Positions 1,434 to 28,638 of a stretch of 32,195 bases of DNA are shown here, one piece after another. Origin of the DNA: a virus; the IMG/VR virus record IMGVR_UViG_3300045988_095223. One strand, given 5' to 3'. Each line of letters begins with the position of its first letter. Within the stretch, counting starts at the first letter, position 1. The notes beneath the pieces were generated by a model that did no database searches, was not told the origin of the DNA, and was given only the letters and a program-made list of their open reading frames with translations. A program made the translations under genes and the position numbers.

Positions 1434-1696
1434 TATCTAAACCTCCTTTTCTTTCTTGTTATTTCCTCTCTTTTTAATCTATCACATTCTTCTTTACTTT
1501 TTACTTTAACAAACATATCATTAGGTAAAGTACATCCATATTTCTTTATCTGATATTTTTCTATTTCTATTATCAATTCTTCTAAATATTTGAAATTTCC
1601 ATGTTCTTTTTTAAAATTCTTTCTAAATGTATCTCTATTTGGTAAACATTTATCTTTATACAAATTAAAGTAAAAATTCAATTTAAACTCTTCCAT
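1433..1696 (-). CDS. Hypothetical basic protein
   Basis: ORF track, 87 aa. Confidence 0.45.
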   Translation of the reverse strand: MEEFKLNFYFNLYKDKCLPNRDTFRKNFKKEHGNFKYLEELIIEIEKYQIKKYGCTLPNDMFVKVKSKEECDRLKREEITRKKRRFR

Positions 1697-2289
1697 TATT
1701 TCCCTCCTAATTCTTTATAATATTCCCAAATAAACCCACCTGCTGTTCTATTGTAATGTTTGCAGCAAAAAGTAATGTTGTTATGTAAAATGCCTAATTC
1801 TCTTTCAATATCCATCGTACTATTCCAAACCTTTATAACTTCACCATTTTTGTTTTTTTGAATAATTTTCTTTGATTTTCTTTTGCCATTATTACTGCTT
1901 GCTTTTCTCACATTCTCACATAATCCATTATCCCATGCATATCTAACATTTTGTTTTTGACTACACCATTCTAGATTTTCAATTCTATTATCATTTTTAA
2001 TTCCATTAATATGATTTATACAAGAATAGTTATTTGGATTAGGAATAAAGGCTTGTGCTATTATTCTGTGCAAAAATAAATTTTTTCTTATTCCATTTTT
2101 ATCTGTTAACTTTACATATTTATAGCCCAATTTATGTGTTCCTATTGATATATATTTATTAATTTCTTTTTCTTCTATCTCCTTTTTATTTATATTGTAT
2201 TTTTTGTTTTTTATTTTCTTTACATTACCTAAATTACTAATTTGATATAATCCTTCGTATCCTTTTATATCTTTCCATATTTCTTTCAT
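1696..2289 (-). CDS. Free-standing HNH homing endonuclease (NUMOD4-like N-terminus plus HNH_3-like core)
   Basis: WKDIKGYEGLYQISNLGNV at the N-terminus. HRIIAQAF...INHINGIKNDNRIENLEWCSQKQN forms an HNH core. Paralogous to the intron ORF at 4841..5389. Confidence 0.75.
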   Translation of the reverse strand: MKEIWKDIKGYEGLYQISNLGNVKKIKNKKYNINKKEIEEKEINKYISIGTHKLGYKYVKLTDKNGIRKNLFLHRIIAQAFIPNPNNYSCINHINGIKNDNRIENLEWCSQKQNVRYAWDNGLCENVRKASSNNGKRKSKKIIQKNKNGEVIKVWNSTMDIERELGILHNNITFCCKHYNRTAGGFIWEYYKELGGK

Positions 2290-3700: not shown

Positions 3701-3734
3701 AATAAAGAAAAAAGAGTTAATGTTTTTTAACTCT
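3701..3734 (-). terminator. Rho-independent terminator ending the late (structural/lysis) operon
   Basis: Minus strand: AGAGTTAA-aaaaca-TTAACTCT followed by tttttctttatt. The stem overlaps the stop of the 3717..4037 ORF. Confidence 0.65.
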
Positions 3735-4037
3735 CTTTAATATTTTACCTACATTTAGGTAATATTCTTCATTTGGAGGTTGCATACTTTCATTTAATTC
3801 TCTAAATAAATTATTTAATTCATTATATGCTTGTAAATCTATTCTTTCAATTCTATGCAAGTCCTCATGAGATTTCTCTATTAATAAAGCATAATTAGAT
3901 ATATTATTATCTCCTCCATATACCCTTTTAAATATATGATGCCTTGTTAAAGGTGTATTTCTATATATCTTATAGCCCATCCAATCTCTTTCTTTTGTTT
4001 TATAGATTTTAAGCATAATCTTAACATCTTTATTCAT
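3717..4037 (-). CDS. Small HNH endonuclease
   Basis: LTRHHIFKRVYGGDNNISNYALLIEKSHEDLH fits the H-N-H beta-beta-alpha metal motif. Confidence 0.6.
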   Translation of the reverse strand: MNKDVKIMLKIYKTKERDWMGYKIYRNTPLTRHHIFKRVYGGDNNISNYALLIEKSHEDLHRIERIDLQAYNELNNLFRELNESMQPPNEEYYLNVGKILKRVKKH

Positions 4038-4040
4038 CTT

Positions 4041-4724
4041 TTATTTTCCAATATACATTGAGAATGTTGTTATAGGTTTCTTTGGTACCCCCGCGTACCC
4101 ATCAAATCCTTTGGCTTTTATCAAGTCTTTTTGATAAGGATATCCATTTACTCTATAATAAGCATATTGGTAAGGTCTAATATTGTCTGGTGTATAATAG
4201 TAACATTCTACTAACGATATAGGGTCTCCATTACCAGCCCAACCAGACATATAGTTATCTATATCGCAGTCAGTTATCCAGCCTAAGGTTTTTCCACTTA
4301 CTGTAGTTACCCTATATTTAATTCCACCTTTATCTACTCTGATGGCAAGCCCAATTATAGGGCTTCCCTCATAGCCAGCATAATCTTCTAAGTTTTTAAC
4401 TTCTGGAAGCCAACCATGTTTTTGTGTTTTAACTCTATAATAAACATTAACTTCATTTGAAACAGGGTTATCTTCTAATTTAGCCTTTATCATATTTAAG
4501 AACCTATCCCAACCTTTATCCATTGTTCTATGAGGGCAATATTTTTTATCAGGTGCATAATCATAATGTCTTTTTACTACTGATATATCCCAACCATATT
4601 TTTTAAGTAAATCTGCTATTAATTCGGCTGCATTTTCTTCTGCTTTGTCAAATCTTTCTCCACCAGATTTAGAATAACATATTTCTATTGCTATAGTTGT
4701 TCTGTTGCCTGGACCATTACCATC
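4041..4724 (-). CDS. Endolysin exon 2: C-terminal half of the N-acetylmuramoyl-L-alanine amidase (Amidase_2/PGRP) domain plus ChW-like cell-wall-binding repeats
   Basis: DGNGPGNRTTIAIEICYSKSGGERFDKAEENAAEL...KKYCPHR continues the amidase fold begun in exon 1. Repeats such as YRVKTQKHGWLPEVKNLEDYAGYEGSPIIGLAIRV resemble Clostridial hydrophobic-W repeats. Exon 1 (228 nt) + exon 2 (684 nt) = 912 nt, in frame. Confidence 0.85.
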   Translation of the reverse strand, partial: DGNGPGNRTTIAIEICYSKSGGERFDKAEENAAELIADLLKKYGWDISVVKRHYDYAPDKKYCPHRTMDKGWDRFLNMIKAKLEDNPVSNEVNVYYRVKTQKHGWLPEVKNLEDYAGYEGSPIIGLAIRVDKGGIKYRVTTVSGKTLGWITDCDIDNYMSGWAGNGDPISLVECYYYTPDNIRPYQYAYYRVNGYPYQKDLIKAKGFDGYAGVPKKPITTFSMYIGK

Positions 4725-5580
4725 CATTTGTATTCAACACAGGTCGTTAATCTGTGTTCGTTCTTTTACGAACTGCTTTATGTTTCCATAAAGATTAGAC
4801 TATATCATTATCCTTTTTCAAGGATACTCTCCATTTCCACTCACTTGAGTGTACTCCCTTTCGGGATAGTCGTTGAACCTTCATATTGTTTCCATATATA
4901 ACCATAAGCGGTTTTTCTTTTTCCTCTTATACATCTACCTATATTGCCACTGATATTTTTATCTTTGCCTAAATGTATCAATGCTTCCCTACAAGTATCG
5001 TATATTTTTATTAAATTGCCTTGTAAATCATATTGTGCTATTCCATATTTAACTTCGTTAGTTAAATTATTGTTTATTGCATGTATTCTATTTTCTTTAT
5101 GTGTTACCCACTCTAAATTATTTAATTTATTATTTTTTTTATTACCATCTATATGATTTATTTCTTCTTTTTGTTCTTGACTAGAAAAAGCCAGCATTAC
5201 TAATCTGTGAACTTTTGGACATTTATATAAAGAATTAGTTCCTCTTAAATCATAATATAAATATCCGCTACTATCAACCGATGGTTTCATAAATCTTTTT
5301 CTACATGGAGTGTATAATCTGCCATCATCATAAATAAAATATCCTTTGCAATTTTCAAATCCGTTTACTTCGCTTAATTCTTTTTTCATATTACCACCAA
5401 ATTAATTATACTACAATTGGCATAATTTGTCAACTTAGTGATGGAAACAATATGCTTGGTTGCTGATTGCCCATTGTACATACTTTAGATTTTTACACTT
5501 TGGTACTAAAGCCTTTAGGGTGTTCCAGCAATTAAAAGAGTTTTCTTATACTATTGCTAATATAAGGAGCAATTTTGTTT
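4725..5580 (-). mobile_element. Group I self-splicing intron (about 856 nt) in the endolysin gene, carrying an HNH homing endonuclease ORF
   Basis: Exon 1 ends in U (..GCG AGU|) and the intron ends in G (..CAAAUG|GAU). GCUC, 10 nt into the intron, can pair with exon GAGU to give the U.G wobble of P1. Conserved core strands are AACGACUAU (4874..4866) and GAUAUAGUCUAAUC (4806..4793), where GACUAU/AUAGUC forms a P7-like pairing. Confidence 0.85.
4841..5389 (-). CDS. Intron-encoded HNH homing endonuclease (HNH_3-like)
   Basis: HRLVMLAFSS...INHIDGNKKNNKLNNLEWVTHKENRIHA. It lies wholly inside the endolysin interruption, and its 3' end overlaps the ribozyme core strand AACGACUAU. Confidence 0.8.
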   Translation of the reverse strand: MKKELSEVNGFENCKGYFIYDDGRLYTPCRKRFMKPSVDSSGYLYYDLRGTNSLYKCPKVHRLVMLAFSSQEQKEEINHIDGNKKNNKLNNLEWVTHKENRIHAINNNLTNEVKYGIAQYDLQGNLIKIYDTCREALIHLGKDKNISGNIGRCIRGKRKTAYGYIWKQYEGSTTIPKGSTLK

Positions 5581-5808
5581 ACTCGCATGCCAACCATTCC
5601 TATCAAGTGGAAGTCCTTGCACTATTTCTTTGTCATCAACAGCATAGTGGAAAGATGTTTCATAGTTATTATTTGTCATATATGCTATTTCGTTTCTAGC
5701 ACTCGCATCATTAGCAGTATTATGTACTGTTATTCCTTTTGGTGTCATTTCATAAGGGCATTTTATACCCCATTTACTTTCTGGTACTAATCTCTTTATT
5801 ATTTCCAT
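5581..5808 (-). CDS. Endolysin exon 1: N-terminal part of the Amidase_2 domain
   Basis: MEIIKRLVPESKWGIKCPYEMTPKGITVHNTANDASARNEIAYMTNNNYETSFHYAVDDKEIVQGLPLDRNGWHAS closely parallels PlyG/PlyL-type amidases (recalled: ..ITVHNT.ND..A.NE..YM..N....SFH.AVDD......P..RNAWACGDGNGSGN). The ORF-track tail KQNCSLY is intron read-through. Confidence 0.85.
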
Positions 5809-5813
5809 ATTAT

Positions 5814-6065
5814 CTACTCTCCTTTTATTAATTTCTCTAAATTATGGAATATGTCATATGTGCCACCTGCGATTATTCCACTTAGAGCAATAGCAACCTT
5901 AAAATCTTTAGTTACTACCCACTCTATTAAAGCAACTATCAATCCAACCGCAATATTCTGCATTGGTATTAATTTATTATTTAATTTAGTATGCTTCTTT
6001 GATATAACACCTAATACCCAAGTTACTATGACAGTTACCAAACTTATTAATGTACTTAATTCCAT
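5814..6065 (-). CDS. Holin (83 aa from MELSTL..)
   Basis: Two to three TM segments and a charged C-terminus, immediately upstream of the endolysin. AGGGAGG Shine-Dalgarno lies 8 nt before the ATG at 6065; the ORF-track start at 6074 is a GTG inside the upstream gene. Confidence 0.7.
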   Translation of the reverse strand: MELSTLISLVTVIVTWVLGVISKKHTKLNNKLIPMQNIAVGLIVALIEWVVTKDFKVAIALSGIIAGGTYDIFHNLEKLIKGE

Positions 6066-6067
6066 TC

Positions 6068-6274
6068 TTAACACCTCCCTTTCAATTCACTAATTTCTTC
6101 TTTTATATACTTAACATCATCTTCTAAGCGATATGTTCTTTCTACCACAGTATTATGTTTCTCTACTTTTTTTTCAAGTTGATTAATTCTATACTTGATT
6201 AAATTCATTCCAGCAAAGGAACCTATACAAGTACCTAAAAATGATATAAGTGCTACTATTATTGTATCGTTCAT
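6068..6274 (-). CDS. Membrane-anchored coiled-coil protein of the lysis cassette (XhlA-like role is possible)
   Basis: N-terminal TM (IIVALISFLGTCIGSFAGMNLI) followed by a heptad-like charged region. Positioned just before the holin. Confidence 0.4.
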   Translation of the reverse strand: MNDTIIVALISFLGTCIGSFAGMNLIKYRINQLEKKVEKHNTVVERTYRLEDDVKYIKEEISELKGRC

Positions 6275-10279: not shown

Positions 10280-11492
10280 TTATGCTCCTCCCATTCCATA
10301 ATTATAATCGTTTTTAGAACCACCACTAAATGTTTTAATATTATTAACCATTTGTCCTAATGGGTCTTGTTCCATATTATTATTTACTACTACATTAACT
10401 TGTGGGCTTAAATTAGTGCTTGAACTTCCATATAGGCTAGGAGATAAACTAAACATATCATCAAACATTCCTCCGACTGTTGAATTAACTTGTCCTTTCA
10501 TATCTTCCATACCTTTTTCTAAACCAACCATATTCATCTTACCTATCCAAGCAAACTCTGTTGATGGACTATGTACTCCAAATATTCCTCTGATTTTTTT
10601 CATTATTGAATTACCTATACCTGCTATCTTGTCAAGTACCCAATCTTTAGCAGACTTAATACCATTCCAAAGACCTTGTATTAAGTTTTTACCGCAATCC
10701 CACATCATTCTAGGCATTCCTTTAAAATATTCAATTACATCAACAACAATTTCTTGTACTCTTGCTAGCAATATTGGAATAGCATTTAATATACCAGCAA
10801 TTAAGCCACCTAATAATTTGAAACCAGCCTCTATGAATAAAGGTAAATTATCAATTAAGATAGGTATAGTGCTAATAATAGCATCTATTATAACTGGTAT
10901 CAATGTAGGTAATTGCTCTGCTAATGCTTGAATTATCATAACTAGCCCTTGAATTAATGAAGTAAGTATAACTGGTAGCATATTTGCCAATTCTTGAATT
11001 ATAGTAGGCAACATACCCATTAATATTTGAATAATACCAGGTAATGCTTGAACTAGCCCCATTATTAATGTTGATGTTCCTTGTATTAGTGCTGGTAATA
11101 CCGCTTGAAGTAAAGGACCAATTAAAGGTATTAAATTATTCAATAAAGTAGTTAAGCCTGTTATTATTTGAGGTGCCATTTTTATTATAGCATTTGATAT
11201 ATTTGTTCCTGCGGTAGTAAAGGTACTTATTACTTCTTCAATTCCACCCGCACCACTTAAGAAATTACTAAATGCTGACTTCGCACTATTTATTGAACCG
11301 CTTATAGTAGTAGAGGCTTCTTTCGCTGTCGTTCCTGTTACATCTAATTCTCCTTGAATTACATGAATAGCATTAAACACATCATTTAAATTAGAAATGT
11401 CGTAATGTACTCCCGATATTTTTTCAGCATCTGATAGTAATCTTTCCATTTCTGTTTTTGTTCCGCCATAGCCAAGTTTCAAATTATCTAAC
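10280..11492 (-). CDS. Tape measure protein exon 2
   Basis: Begins (M)LDNLKLGYGGTKTEMERLLSDAEKISG.., the second half of the conserved TMP motif. It is followed by long hydrophobic/helical repeats (LIPLIGPLLQAVLPALIQG...). Confidence 0.85.
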
Positions 11493-11879
11493 CATTTACA
11501 CCCCTAGTTTCCTAGTACTTTAACACTTATTTAAAAGTGGGATTAGACTATATCTTTATCTCAAACTTCCAATCTTTTTTATTTCCTTTTTTATAATATC
11601 TTCCATATTCAATATTGCAAGTTAGATATTATATATTTGAGATAGTATGCACTTCCAATATCGTATCAATAGATATTGTACTGAGTAACGAACTCATAGT
11701 CGTTTGACCTTCCTATTTCTAGGCTTGGCACTGGATAACCATATCTTTTGGACTTAGGCTTCCCCAGTTAGCAAGATTATCTAAATAAGTCATTTCCTCC
11801 TTATATTTTAATCTCACACCCTTGATAAGGTTCACATACACTTACTTAATTATTACTAATTAAGCAGACATTAATTTTT
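11493..11879 (-). mobile_element. Group I self-splicing intron (387 nt, no full-length ORF) in the tape measure gene
   Basis: Exon 1 ends ..UAU ACG AU| (U) and the intron ends ..GUAAAUG| (G). Splicing yields ACG AUG UUA GAU = T M L D, and 482 + 1213 nt = 1695 nt, in frame. It has the same core strands as the endolysin intron: AACGACUAU (11704..11696) and GAUAUAGUCUAAUC (11554..11541). Confidence 0.85.
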
Positions 11880-12361
11880 ATCGTATAATTCTGCTTAGCG
11901 AAACCTTGATAAGCGTTTTGAATATTCTCAATGGCAGTGCCGAATTTATTTGAGTTGTCAGCCATATCTTGAATAGCCATGTCGCCGACTTTGGCTGCTT
12001 CCGCAGTATCTCCGCCTAGGCTTTGCAACAAACTAGCACTAAATGAAGTTATTTGCTCCATATATTTATTAGCATCTATTCCTGCTGTCATATAAGCCTT
12101 TTTAGAGTTTTCTATAACTGTATCGGCACTATCTTTGAAAAGTGTTTCAACACCACCGATATTCTGCTCTAAATCAGCAACACCTTGCAAGGCATCTTTG
12201 CCAAGCCCTAATAAAGAACTACCTACTTTTTCAATAGCACTAGACATTAAGTTACCAATAGCAACAGTACTCGCTTTCAATTTACCAGCGACACCATTAG
12301 TCTTTTTTTCTAGGTCTTTATCATCTCCTTTAAACTTGAAGATGACTTCTCCTCCATTCAT
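11880..12361 (-). CDS. Tape measure protein exon 1
   Basis: ..NIQNAYQGFAKQNYT is the first half of the conserved TMP motif AYQGFAKQNYTMLDNLKLGYGG. The ORF-track tail IKINVCLISNN is intron read-through. Confidence 0.85.
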
Positions 12362-27925: not shown

Positions 27926-28129
27926 TTACCATTTATAAGTCCACATTAGATATAATACATAAATTAATATTGTTGCTAAAACCAATAGATTGACTATAAT
28001 TAAATATGCTTTTATATCTTCTTGTTTATTCTTTTTTAATATTCTTAATTGTTCTCTTTCTGTCTTACTTGTAGGAAATTCTTTTTTTAATTTCCACATT
28101 TGATATTTGCTTATTTTTTCTGGTTTCAT
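27926..28129 (-). CDS. Small membrane protein (C-terminal TM)
   Basis: ORF track, 67 aa, with LIIVNLLVLATILIYVLYLMW. Confidence 0.4.
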   Translation of the reverse strand: MKPEKISKYQMWKLKKEFPTSKTEREQLRILKKNKQEDIKAYLIIVNLLVLATILIYVLYLMWTYKW

Positions 28130-28638
28130 TTAATCCTCCTAAAATCTTTGCAGGCCTCTGTATTTTTTGTTATTCTTATTTTTCTATATCTACAATAATA
28201 TGTCGGTATCGTATTTCCTTTTATTTGCCTTTTTTCTAATAATCTGCAATTTTTACATCTATCTTTTATTTCTTTTTTCTCTTCTGATATTATAATTTTT
28301 TCTCTAAGGCTATTTTTTTTATCATATTTAAGTGTTTTCATTAACTCGGTAATACTTGTTATGTTTTCTTTTTTAATTAAATATGACCTACAAAATTGTT
28401 TTATTTGGTCTCTTAATGAAATATCTTTACCATTATCTAATGCTCGATGACATTTAATACACAACATAGCCCCATTCTCTTTGCAACCTTTTCCACCATG
28501 TGCTCTTGATAAGAATATATGTGCTATTTGTAATGCTCCATTATTTCCACAAAAGACACACCTATTATTATCTCTTTTTTTTATATATTTTCTTGTTTCT
28601 TTATCAAACTCACACCATTGACTTCTTATACTCATCAT
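28126..28638 (-). CDS. HNH endonuclease-domain protein with a Cys-rich C-terminal extension
   Basis: CVFCG...IAHIFLSRAHGGKGCKENGAMLCIKCHRALD, then CKNC...CRY...C. Confidence 0.6.
   Translation of the reverse strand: MMSIRSQWCEFDKETRKYIKKRDNNRCVFCGNNGALQIAHIFLSRAHGGKGCKENGAMLCIKCHRALDNGKDISLRDQIKQFCRSYLIKKENITSITELMKTLKYDKKNSLREKIIISEEKKEIKDRCKNCRLLEKRQIKGNTIPTYYCRYRKIRITKNTEACKDFRRIK

What the first reader, a model, noticed from the sequence alone, without database searches (positions are those of the whole stretch)
4041..5808. Endolysin gene interrupted by a group I intron that carries an HNH homing endonuclease
The ORF track shows two fragments of a single Amidase_2 (PlyG/PlyL-like) endolysin.

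- The fragment at 5557..5808 ends ..LDRNGWHA followed by a junk tail.
- The fragment at 4041..4727 begins MDGNGPGNRTTIAIEICYSKSGG.
- In intact homologues these are contiguous (recalled PlyG: ..RNAWACGDGNGSGNRQSISVEICYSKSGG).
- The roughly 856 nt between them contain an HNH_3-type endonuclease ORF (4841..5389) flanked by non-coding sequence.

The proposed junctions obey group I rules.

- The 5' exon ends in U (GCG AGU|) and the intron ends in G (CAAAUG|GAU).
- GCUC, 10 nt inside the intron, can pair with exon GAGU to give the U.G wobble.
- A GACUAU/AUAGUC P7-like pairing is present, with the familiar GAUAUAGUC element.
- Joining 5581..5808 to 4041..4724 gives an in-frame 303-aa protein reading ..NGWHAS-DGNGPGN..

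Lysis would therefore depend on RNA self-splicing. The insertion sits in the catalytic core, as expected for a homing target.
Basis: partly seen in the sequence, partly recalled or inferred. Interest (0 to 1): 0.8.

Follow-up and report, generated by a model that had tools for sequence, protein, structure and literature searches.

The report
Group I intron splitting phage endolysin
The phage's cell-wall-cutting enzyme gene is interrupted by a self-splicing RNA intron that carries its own DNA-cutting "homing" enzyme, which is a real feature but a relative of the well-known intron in the lysin gene of Staphylococcus phage K.

Summary

- **Layout (minus strand):** exon 1 is 5808..5581, an 856-nt insertion is 5580..4725, and exon 2 is 4724..4041.
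- **Spliced product:** joining the exons gives a 303-aa Amidase_2 endolysin. It aligns without a gap to PlyG and PlyL, and its junction peptide is identical to three intron-less alleles.
- **Intron fold:** the insertion has a complete group I fold (P1-P9.2, U.G at the 5' splice site, terminal G). Covariation across seven introns supports it: 86.6% of cells paired against 33-40% in controls.
- **Endonuclease:** the I-HmuI-like HNH gene lies in the P6 loop. A perfect 14-bp P6a helix closes the loop, and a perfect sigma-70 promoter precedes the gene.
- **Rfam:** there are only split, sub-threshold hits. The validated phage K lysK intron behaves the same way.
- **Closest relative:** the phage K lysK intron sits at the homologous codon (WHTG|DGTG), and I-KsaI is 49% identical to this HNH.
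- **Other carriers:** two further metagenomic lysins carry introns at the same site, and their guide sequences co-vary with the exon.
- **Mobility:** a Ser codon swap (TCT to AGT) exactly at the junction suggests co-conversion by homing.

It is a new member of a known kind. A second, ORF-less intron splits the tape-measure gene.

The parts
5581..5808 (-). Endolysin exon 1 (76 codons, MEIIK...NGWHAS). It ends in U at 5581.
   Evidence: Pfam Amidase_2 profile 3-69. Gap-free alignment to PlyG and PlyL residues 1-76.
4725..5580 (-). Group I intron, 856 nt, IA2-like (P7.1 and P7.2 present), with the HNH gene in the P6 loop.
   Evidence: RF00028 partial hits. Homology to Rfam-verified introns. Covariation. 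Homology to the phage K lysK intron.
4041..4724 (-). Endolysin exon 2 (DGNGPGN...MYIGK plus stop): the rest of the amidase domain and a C-terminal domain with no family match.
   Evidence: Pfam Amidase_2 profile 67-130. Continuous in 148 homologues.
5567..5584 (-). P1. Exon GAGU plus intron AA (5584..5579) pairs with the internal guide UUGCUC (5572..5567), with a U.G wobble at the splice site.
   Evidence: Rfam places model position 10 (the splice-site U) at 5581. The guide co-varies with the exon in L162, L074 and phage K.
5545..5566 (-). P2 hairpin (CUUAUAUU/AGUAUAAG). It contains the in-frame stop TAG (5559..5557) that ends the exon 1 reading frame before the core.
5535..5541 (-). P3 5' strand ACUCUUU, pairing with 4832..4826.
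   Evidence: Covariation ACUCU/AGAGU, ACCUC/GAGGU, AAUCC/GGAUU.
5460..5531 (-). P4-P5-P4' domain (P4 UUGCUG/CAGCAA, P5 CCC/GGG with an extension). It lies within the 89-nt stretch (5543..5455) that is 89% identical to Bacillus phage Internexus DnaB intron 2.
5441..5459 (-). P6 (CC) and the P6a 5' strand CAUAUUGUUUCCAU.
   Evidence: 14-nt, 100% complementary inverted repeat with 4895..4882. 0 of 500 shuffles reach 14 nt.
5405..5433 (-). Perfect sigma-70 consensus promoter TTGACA-17-TATAAT for the HNH gene, inside the P6 loop. An RBS GGUGG follows at 5398.
   Evidence: 12/12 match. It is one of four perfect matches in the window, all on the coding strand, against 0.08 expected. Equivalent promoters occur in the phage K and L074 introns.
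4841..5389 (-). HNH homing endonuclease gene (182 aa, I-HmuI/I-KsaI family). Its last ~18 codons overlap P6a', P6', P7, P7.1 and P7.2.
   Evidence: Pfam HNH_3, NUMOD1 and I-HmuI_NUMOD-like. PDB 1U3E E 1e-7. I-KsaI 49% identity, E 3e-52. 115 Staphylococcus phage lysin-intron HNHs are the best hits.
4878..4895 (-). P6a 3' strand AUGGAAACAAUAUG and P6' (GG).
4866..4871 (-). P7 5' strand GACUAU, preceded by J6/7 UUCAAC.
   Evidence: Invariant in all seven aligned introns.
4838..4865 (-). P7.1 (CCC-GAAA-GGG) and P7.2 (CACUC-AAGU-GAGUG).
   Evidence: P7.2 covaries: CACUC/GAGUG, CAUCU/AGAUG, GGGUC/GACUC.
4826..4832 (-). P3 3' strand GGAGAGU.
4810..4825 (-). P8 hairpin AUCCUU-GAAA-AAGGAU.
   Evidence: RF00028 hit 4825..4778. 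Covariation.
4798..4803 (-). P7 3' strand AUAGUC, within the J8/7-P7' element AAUGAUAUAGUC.
4736..4793 (-). P9 (CUUUAUG-GAAA-CAUAAAG), P9.1 (GUUC/GAAC) and P9.2 (AACACAG/CUGUGUU).
   Evidence: 79-86% identical to Silviavirus introns. Strong covariation in P9 and P9.2.
4725..4725 (-). Terminal G (omega-G) at the 3' splice site, in the conserved ending GAAUA-N5-G|GAUGG.
   Evidence: The position is conserved with Silviavirus introns 1 and 2, L162 and phage K.

Best explanation
The endolysin gene of this ~32-kb siphovirus-like phage from an uncultured low-GC gut Bacillota host is interrupted by a mobile group I intron. The insertion point is between codons 76 and 77 of the Amidase_2 catalytic domain.

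Shown by sequence analysis:
- The intron RNA can form P1 (exon GAGU.AA with guide UUGCUC, U.G at the splice site), P2, the P3/P7 pseudoknot, P4-P6, P7.1, P7.2, P8 and P9-P9.2, and it ends in G.
- An I-HmuI/I-KsaI-type HNH endonuclease gene with its own consensus promoter and RBS sits in the P6 loop. A 14-bp P6a helix closes that loop and brings the ribozyme core together.
- Exon ligation restores exactly the residue spacing seen in intact amidases.

Inferred by homology to the phage K lysK intron and to group I chemistry in general:
- Exogenous GTP attacks after U5581, then the 5' exon attacks after G4725.
- This yields an mRNA for the 303-aa lysin. Neither exon alone has a full active site: H29 is in exon 1, and E90, H129 and C139 are in exon 2.
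- Lysis therefore depends on splicing.
- The exon 1 reading frame stops 8 codons into the intron, inside P2. This keeps ribosomes out of the core.

Inferred for mobility:
- In mixed infections the HNH enzyme nicks or cleaves intron-less lysin alleles near the conserved WH(A/T/S)(S/G)|DG(N/T)G coding sequence.
- Recombinational repair then copies the intron in, together with a few flanking exon bases.
For: - **Junction:** the spliced protein aligns gap-free to PlyG and PlyL (E 5e-54). Amidase_2 forms a single 79-bit domain. 148 homologous loci are continuous across the site, and L082-L084 have the identical junction peptide.
- **Ribozyme, Rfam:** RF00028 partial hits with the splice-site U placed at 5581.
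- **Ribozyme, homology:** 79% over 152 nt to a Silviavirus intron that scores 87 bits in Rfam. 89% over 90 nt to Internexus intron 2, which scores 67 bits.
- **Ribozyme, covariation:** 74-pair model with 86.6% of cells paired against 33-40% when slid. 42 pairs change on both sides against 9-18. 0 of 500 shuffles reach the observed values.
- **P6a:** 14-bp perfect helix, reached by 0 of 500 shuffles.
- **Same site elsewhere:** L162 has a homologous intron (HNH 69% aa). L074 and L075 have a different intron. Phage K lysK has a homologous intron (HNH 49%, E 3e-52).
- **P1 covariation with the exon:** GAGUAA/UUGCUC (window), GGGUAA/UUGCCC (L162 and phage K), CAGGUAA/UUGCCUG (L074).
- **Mobility:** over the amidase-domain coding sequence the window and L082 differ at about 7 positions. 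Four of these are at -4, -3, -2 and +6 from the junction (TCT to AGT, GGA to GGT).
- **Promoter:**
- **Precedent for function:** the Kayvirus lysin is split by an intron encoding I-KsaI, and full-length lysin was detected by LC-MS/MS (PMC5618024).
Against: - RF00028 does not reach its gathering score, either in the whole window or locally. The validated phage K intron also fails it.
- No RNA or protein data exist for this phage, so splicing, its efficiency, and any need for a chaperone are untested.
- The NUMOD DNA-binding domain hits are below the Pfam cut-offs.
- No convincing P10 pairing with the 3' exon was found by eye.
- The internal promoter is absent from the L162 homologue, so it is not essential to the element.
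- The covariation model was derived from the window sequence. That inflates the contrast with the slid controls.
Confidence: 0.9

Rival explanations
1. The insertion is a non-splicing mobile HNH cassette that has broken the lysin gene. The phage either makes two polypeptides that assemble into a split amidase, or it is a defective copy with a dead lysin.
For: Both fragments appear as ORFs, and the second starts with ATG. Rfam finds no intron at its curated threshold.
Against: - The ATG at 4727..4725 is formed by the intron's last three bases. No Shine-Dalgarno sequence lies upstream.
- The homologous phage K intron ends ..AAUCG and has no ATG there.
- The non-coding flanks are conserved as RNA helices with compensatory changes, not as protein.
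- The 14-bp P6a helix has no explanation under this model.
- The rest of the genome looks intact.
Confidence: 0.04
2. It is a group I intron, but one that splices poorly or conditionally. It may need a host or phage factor, so splicing would act as a timer or brake on lysin production rather than being neutral.
For: - P1 is short (6 bp), with no obvious P10.
- The ORF's 3' end overlaps P6a' through P7.2, so translating the HNH gene would compete with ribozyme folding.
- The lysin is a late, dose-sensitive product.
Against: - There is no direct evidence.
- The same overlaps occur in the phage K intron, and that phage lyses normally.
- All core helices are intact.
Confidence: 0.05
3. The interruption is an intein, a group II intron or an assembly chimera.
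For: None beyond the presence of an endonuclease ORF inside a gene.
Against: - The exon 1 frame meets a stop 8 codons into the insert, and the HNH ORF is in a separate translation unit with its own RBS. That excludes an intein.
- The core motifs are those of group I, not group II.
- Independent contigs (L162, L074, L075) and more than 100 Staphylococcus phage genomes carry insertions at the same codon. That excludes a chimera.
Confidence: 0.01

Closest known systems
Kayvirus (Staphylococcus phage K, G1, 812, ISP...) lysK group I intron encoding the HNH endonuclease I-KsaI
   Same: - The insertion point is the homologous codon of the Amidase_2 domain: phage K IAWHTG|DGTGANSGN against the window's NGWHAS|DGNGPGN.
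- Size is similar, 876 against 856 nt.
- P1 has the same form (GGGU.AA/UUGCCC).
- The HNH gene lies in the P6 loop, closed by a P6a helix made from the same sequence block (..AAUAUUGUUU / AAACAAUAUU..).
- A sigma-70-type promoter and an RBS precede the HNH gene.
- The ORF ends in ..GNIGRCI(K/R)G(E/K)RKTAYGYIWKQY.
- The 3' end is UUGAAUA-N-G|GAUGG.
- The HNH proteins are 49% identical over their full length.
   Different: - The host gene is a two-domain PlyG/PlyL-like lysin: an N-terminal amidase plus a C-terminal domain with no family match. LysK is CHAP-amidase-SH3b.
- The phage is a ~32-kb siphovirus-like gut phage, not a 140-kb Herelleviridae myovirus.
- Intron nucleotide identity reaches only about 70-79%, and only in pieces.
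- The window's P3-P6 5' part is instead 89% identical to a Bacillus phage DnaB intron, so the intron is mosaic.
- The window's HNH ORF runs 16 codons further, into P7.2.
Twort orf142-type / Silviavirus tandem group IA2 introns (ORF-less)
   Same: The 3' half has the same architecture: P7.1, an identical P7.2, P3', P8, J8/7-P7', P9, P9.1 and P9.2. Identity is 79-86%.
   Different: Those introns lack an ORF, sit in a structural gene as tandem copies, and have short P6 hairpins.
[quoted passage not shown] 2000, J Virol 74:611; cited in PMC11878797, paper not held)
   Same: A lysin gene of a phage of low-GC Gram-positive bacteria is interrupted by a group I intron that is sporadically distributed among related phages.
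   Different: I could not compare the insertion site or the intron class, because the paper and its sequences were not examined here.
I-HmuI (SPO1 DNA polymerase intron HNH nicking endonuclease, PDB 1U3E)
   Same: HNH_3 catalytic motif plus NUMOD-like C-terminal modules. Sequence match E 1e-7 over residues 6-111.
   Different: The host gene and intron are different. Nicking activity and the target site of the window enzyme are unknown.

Membership tests
Group I self-splicing intron (RF00028) | The 5' exon ends in U, paired with G of an internal guide sequence (P1) | tested here: met
   U5581 pairs with G5570 in GAGUAA/UUGCUC. Rfam aligns the splice-site U to 5581. The guide co-varies with the exon in L162, L074 and phage K.
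Group I self-splicing intron (RF00028) | The intron ends in G (omega-G) and exon ligation restores the reading frame | tested here: met
   G4725 is the last base. The 303-aa product aligns gap-free to PlyG and PlyL and is identical at the junction to L082-L084.
Group I self-splicing intron (RF00028) | Conserved core: P3-P8 with the P3/P7 pseudoknot and the J8/7-P7 G-binding region | tested here: met
   All helices were located. 86.6% of cells are paired, with 42 doubly changed pairs across 7 introns, and controls are far lower. P7 is invariant.
Group I self-splicing intron (RF00028) | Score at or above the Rfam gathering threshold (50 bits) | tested here: not met
   30.5 and 16.8 bits as two pieces. 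The validated phage K lysK intron also fails, at 33.4 and 23.7 bits. The cause is the ORF-bearing insert in the P6 loop (545 nt between the P6a arms), which the model cannot span.
Group I self-splicing intron (RF00028) | GTP-dependent self-splicing | not testable with these tools
   This needs in-vitro transcription and splicing, or RT-PCR.
HNH (I-HmuI/I-KsaI-type) homing endonuclease | HNH catalytic motif above the curated threshold | tested here: met
   Pfam HNH_3 at 37.6 bits, cut-off 24.8. 1U3E E 1e-7.
HNH (I-HmuI/I-KsaI-type) homing endonuclease | C-terminal NUMOD-type DNA-binding modules | tested here: inconclusive
   NUMOD1 scores 21.1 bits (cut-off 22.8) and I-HmuI_NUMOD-like 19.3 bits (cut-off 27). 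The C-terminal half is, however, the part best conserved with I-KsaI.
HNH (I-HmuI/I-KsaI-type) homing endonuclease | Cleaves or nicks the intron-less allele and promotes homing | not testable with these tools
   The evidence is circumstantial only. The intron is sporadically distributed: among the 161 loci retrieved with the lysin, 148 were continuous across the site and only L074 and L075 were split there (L162 came from the separate HNH search). A 4-base exon difference hugs the junction.
Kayvirus lysK intron / I-KsaI lineage | Insertion at the WHxG|DGxG codon of the Amidase_2 domain | tested here: met
Kayvirus lysK intron / I-KsaI lineage | Homologous endonuclease in the P6 loop | tested here: met
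   49% identity, E 3e-52, full length. The best hits in the isolated-phage collection are 115 Staphylococcus phages; wherever the listed records annotate the surrounding gene it is the endolysin. P6a is formed from the same sequence block.

The most novel reading that the evidence does not exclude
The WH(A/T/S)(S/G)|DG(N/T)G coding sequence of Amidase_2 endolysins may be a cross-family homing hotspot. At least two distinct intron/HNH lineages use it: the window/L162/phage K type and the L074 type. The free-standing I-HmuI-like HNH genes that sit immediately upstream or downstream of the lysin in intron-less relatives, and at 1696..2289 in the window, may target the same lysin sequence. That would capture the transition between free-standing and intron-borne endonucleases (intron-less or collaborative homing) within one phage family.
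Probability: 0.15. Interest if true: 0.5.

Novelty: new member of a known kind. Interest (0 to 1): 0.3.

Why it matters
- **Annotation:** gene callers will report this lysin as two fragments plus an HNH gene. The real product is a 303-aa PlyG-like amidase, which matters for anyone mining gut-phage endolysins.
- **Spread of the element:** the phage K lysK intron/I-KsaI lineage, known from Staphylococcus myoviruses, also occupies the same catalytic-site codon in small phages of uncultured gut Bacillota. It therefore moves across phage families.
- **Mobility:** the co-conversion-like Ser codon swap at the junction, against an otherwise ~98.5% identical intron-less allele (L082), is a clean natural record of a recent invasion.
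- **Limits:** none of this changes current understanding of phage introns.

Tried and rejected
- **Rfam, whole window:** nothing at the gathering threshold or at E<=1. Only small-region searches showed the partial hits.
- **ORF-deleted intron:** I could not give a custom ORF-deleted intron to Infernal. I replaced that test with a hand model, MAFFT alignment A1 and pair counting.
- **Alignment quality:** MAFFT misaligned P1, P2 and P7.1 for some introns, so those helices score lower.
- **L076:** first flagged as split. It is only cut by its contig end and is continuous across the site.
- **Exact-match search:** the intron's first 25 nt gave 0 hits in viral contigs.
- **L074:** hand-modelling of its P2/P3 was ambiguous and was not pursued.
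- **P10:** I looked for pairing with the 3' exon by eye and found none convincing.
- **Literature:** Foley et al. 2000 (PMC111580) is not held. The 2014 review PMC3984707 does not mention lysin introns.
- **PHROGs:** no family for ORF 3717..4037 or for several structural ORFs.
- **Other introns:** a motif scan for further introns found only the lysin and TMP sites.
Full report
**1. Observation**

All features lie on the minus strand. ORF 5808..5557 ends ..LDRNGWHASKQNCSLY*. ORF 4727..4041 begins MDGNGPGNRTTIAIEICYSKSGG. ORF 5389..4841 (182 aa) lies between them.

Pfam places exon 1 on Amidase_2 profile positions 3-69 and exon 2 on positions 67-130. It calls the middle ORF HNH_3 (37.6 bits, cut-off 24.8), with weak NUMOD1 and I-HmuI_NUMOD-like matches. 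A Phage_holin_5_2 holin (6074..5814) lies immediately upstream.

Joining 5808..5581 to 4724..4041 is in frame and gives 303 aa.

**2. The junction is exact**

- The spliced protein aligns to PlyG (2L47, E 5e-54) and PlyL (1YB0) with no gap across ..RNGWHAS|DGNGPGNR...
- Amidase_2 becomes a single 79-bit domain.
- Scans of genome and viral collections with the spliced lysin returned 161 loci. In 148 of them the homologue is continuous across residues 76/77.
- The three closest intron-less alleles (L082 at 89%, L083 at 83%, L084 at 82% amino-acid identity) encode LDRNGWHASDGNGPGNRT, identical to the predicted ligation product.
- H29 lies in exon 1, and E90, H129 and C139 lie in exon 2. The E90A mutant of PlyL is visible. 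The roles as zinc ligands are from my memory of the PlyL structure. On that basis neither fragment has a complete active site.

**3. The insert is a group I intron**

*Rfam.* There is no hit at the gathering score on the whole window. On 4650..5650, RF00028 matches 4825..4778 (P8, J8/7, P7', P9; 30.5 bits, E 1e-5). It also matches 5590..5380 (16.8 bits, E 0.14), with the model's splice-site U on 5581.

*Why the hits are split.* Internexus DnaB intron 2 is a full 67-bit RF00028 hit. Its P3-P6 part is 89% identical to window 5543..5455, and its P6 is a 16-nt hairpin (CCAAG-6 nt-UAAGG). The window has about 570 nt at that point, between the two P6 strands.

*Control.* The phage K lysK intron is annotated as a join, and its spliced product has been seen by LC-MS/MS (PMC5618024). 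It gives the same split, sub-threshold hits, 33.4 and 23.7 bits.

*P6a.* A 14-nt, 100% complementary pair (5454..5441 with 4895..4882) lies directly against P6 and P6' and encloses the promoter and most of the ORF. None of 500 dinucleotide shuffles gives a perfect pair of 14 nt or more anywhere in the region.

*Homology of the 3' part.* The 3' 152 nt are 79% identical (E 2.5e-31) to a Silviavirus (Twort-like) intron that scores 87 bits in Rfam.

*Covariation.* I aligned the window core, with the P6a loop removed, to two Internexus and four Silviavirus introns (A1). I then mapped my 74-pair model (P1-P9.2, with P7 as a pseudoknot) onto the alignment.

| Measure | Model | Slid controls |
|---|---|---|
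| Cells paired | 86.6% | 33-40% |
| Pairs changed on both sides | 42 | 9-18 |

No shuffle out of 500 reaches the observed pairing, double changes or covariation score. The model came from the window sequence, which favours it over the slid versions. The six other sequences nevertheless carry most of the compensatory changes.

P7.1 and P7.2 lie between P7 and P3', which indicates an IA2-like intron.

**4. Independent introns at the same codon**

- **L162** (a 63-kb viral contig) has an Amidase_2 lysin split at ..NAWHSG|DGNGTGN.. by an 803-nt homologue of the window intron. Identity is 76% at nucleotide level over the ORF and 3' core, and the HNH is 69% identical.
- **L074 and L075** (Firmicutes CAG:321 and a related MAG) are split at ..GWHAG|DGNGKGN.. 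by an 824-nt intron. Its only detected nucleotide similarity to the window intron lies within the HNH ORF, and its HNH is different (37% identical).
- **Phage K** lysK is split at ..IAWHTG|DGTGANSGN.. by an 876-nt intron. Joining the exons gives the 495-aa LysK.

In each case the guide sequence matches its own exon:

| Element | Exon end + intron start | Guide |
|---|---|---|
| Window | GAGUAA | UUGCUC |
| L162, phage K | GGGUAA | UUGCCC |
| L074 | CAGGUAA | UUGCCUG |

This is covariation across the splice site. L162 also shows compensatory changes in P2, P4, P8, P9 and P9.2.

**5. The endonuclease**

- The ORF matches I-HmuI (1U3E, E 1e-7).
- It is 49% identical over its full length to I-KsaI (E 3e-52).
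- Its best matches among isolated phages are 115 Staphylococcus phages. Where the listed records annotate the surrounding gene, it is the endolysin.
- A perfect TTGACA-17-TATAAT (5433..5405) and a GGUGG RBS precede it.
- Only four perfect matches to that promoter consensus occur in the window. All are on the coding strand, against 0.08 expected.
- Phage K (TTGACA-17-TATACT) and L074 (TTGACA-17-TATAAT) have an equivalent promoter. L162 does not.
- The last ~18 codons of the ORF overlap P6a', P6', P7, P7.1 and P7.2.

**6. Evidence for mobility**

Over roughly the first 470 nt of the coding sequence (the amidase domain), the window and L082 differ at only about 7 positions. Four of these are at -4, -3, -2 and +6 from the insertion point: GCA TCT|GAT GGA in L082 against GCG AGT|GAT GGT in the window.

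- The Ser codon change TCT to AGT alters three adjacent bases (the Ala third position and the first two Ser positions). These are exactly the bases that pair with the guide.
- The Ser switch itself needs two base changes that cannot be made one at a time without changing the amino acid. Import of a short donor exon tract together with the intron (co-conversion) is therefore the simplest explanation.
- The intron is rare at this site: only L074 and L075 among the 161 lysin-derived loci, plus L162 found through the HNH search.
- The intron is mosaic. Its 5' core is Internexus-like. Its ORF and 3' part are related to L162 and phage K. P7.1-P9.2 are Silviavirus-like.

These points fit a mobile element.

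**7. Mechanism**

*Shown:* the fold, the splice-site rules, exact restoration of the reading frame, and an intact HNH gene with expression signals.

*Inferred:* GTP-initiated two-step self-splicing yields the lysin mRNA, so lysis depends on it. The stop codon at 5559..5557 inside P2 halts ribosomes before they reach the core. The HNH enzyme nicks or cleaves intron-less alleles during mixed infection, and repair copies the intron in.

**8. Comparison and novelty**

A phage lysin gene split by a group I intron that encodes an HNH endonuclease is documented for Kayvirus (PMC5618024). Lysin or amidase introns are also listed for phages K, G1 and PH15 (PMC2504315, Table 3) and reported for S. thermophilus phages (Foley 2000, cited in PMC11878797).

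The window element belongs to the same lineage as the phage K intron and sits at the same codon. It is therefore a new member of a known kind. What is new is limited to three points:
- the host phage and lysin type;
- the mosaic make-up of the intron;
- the clean co-conversion signature.

**9. Context and side findings**

The window is a ~32-kb siphovirus-like genome with all genes on the minus strand. It encodes a DnaD-like loader, Erf, an exonuclease, a ParB-methyltransferase, TerL, portal, TMP, holin and lysin.

*Second intron.* The tape-measure gene is split by a second, ORF-less group I intron at 11879..11493.
- RF00028 gives a full-length alignment at 36 bits, E 1.2e-7.
- Ligation gives ..GFAKQNYT-M-LDNLKLGYGG...
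- That peptide aligns as one gapless piece to 362 phage tape-measure proteins.
- TMP introns are known in B. cereus prophages (PMC2504315).

*Free-standing HNH genes.* I-HmuI-like HNH genes lie at 2289..1696 in the window. In intron-less relatives they lie directly beside the lysin.

**Verdict**

My confidence is 0.9 that this is a spliced group I intron carrying an HNH homing endonuclease. Interest is 0.3.

Noticed in passing
window 11493..11879 (-), between TMP ORFs 12361..11846 and 11482..10280: A second, ORF-less group I intron (387 nt) splits the tape-measure gene. RF00028 gives a full-length alignment at 36 bits, E 1.2e-7 (below gathering). Joining 11880|11492 gives ..AKQNYT-M-LDNLKLGYGG.., which aligns gaplessly to 362 phage TMPs.
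   Followed up: yes
window 1696..2289 (-) and 28126..28638 (-): Two further free-standing HNH endonuclease genes. The first (phrog_59, E 1e-41) is 38% identical to the HNH of the L074 lysin intron.
   Followed up: partly
L082 2460-2993; L121 2490-2987; L027/L032/L085 3992-4510; L083 1516-2022; L090/L091 4003-4503: In intron-less relatives, a free-standing I-HmuI-like HNH gene sits immediately upstream or downstream of the lysin gene. The lysis module is a hotspot for this endonuclease family.
   Followed up: partly
L074 3229..4052 (also L075): An 824-nt group I intron with its own HNH gene and a TTGACA-17-TATAAT promoter occupies the same lysin codon. Its only detected nucleotide similarity to the window intron lies within the HNH ORF, and its HNH is different. 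Its guide is matched to its own exon (CAGGUAA/UUGCCUG).
   Followed up: partly
L162 2368..3170 (IMGVR_UViG_3300011008_002676): A homologous intron (76% nt, HNH 69% aa) sits at the same codon of a different lysin in a 63-kb phage contig. It lacks the internal sigma-70 promoter and has a short P5.
   Followed up: yes
window 5455..5543 vs L081 2501-2590; window 4731..4882 vs L080 2730-2881: The lysin intron is mosaic. P3-P6 is 89% identical to Bacillus phage Internexus DnaB intron 2. P7.1-P9.2 is 79-86% identical to Silviavirus introns. The ORF is related to L162 and phage K.
   Followed up: partly
window 31028, 19081, 5433, 3645 (-35 start, minus strand): Four perfect TTGACA-N16-18-TATAAT promoters, all on the coding strand, against 0.08 expected by simulation. 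They probably define the transcription units of this phage.
   Followed up: partly
window 3717..4037 (-): A 106-aa ORF just downstream of the lysin is 92-96% identical in related phages. That is more conserved than the lysin itself, yet it matches no Pfam or PHROG family. It contains an RHHI...N...H-like motif.
   Followed up: partly
window 4041..4560 (-), lysin residues ~160-303: The C-terminal (presumed wall-binding) domain has no Pfam match. It is much more divergent from L082-L084 than the nearly identical amidase domain, which suggests domain shuffling.
   Followed up: no
L080 2242-3395 (Staphylococcus Silviavirus PV360683) and L081 692-2781 (Bacillus phage Internexus): L080 has four tandem ORF-less group I introns within ~1.2 kb. 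The Internexus DnaB gene has two introns, and Internexus annotates the exons as separate helicase genes.
   Followed up: no
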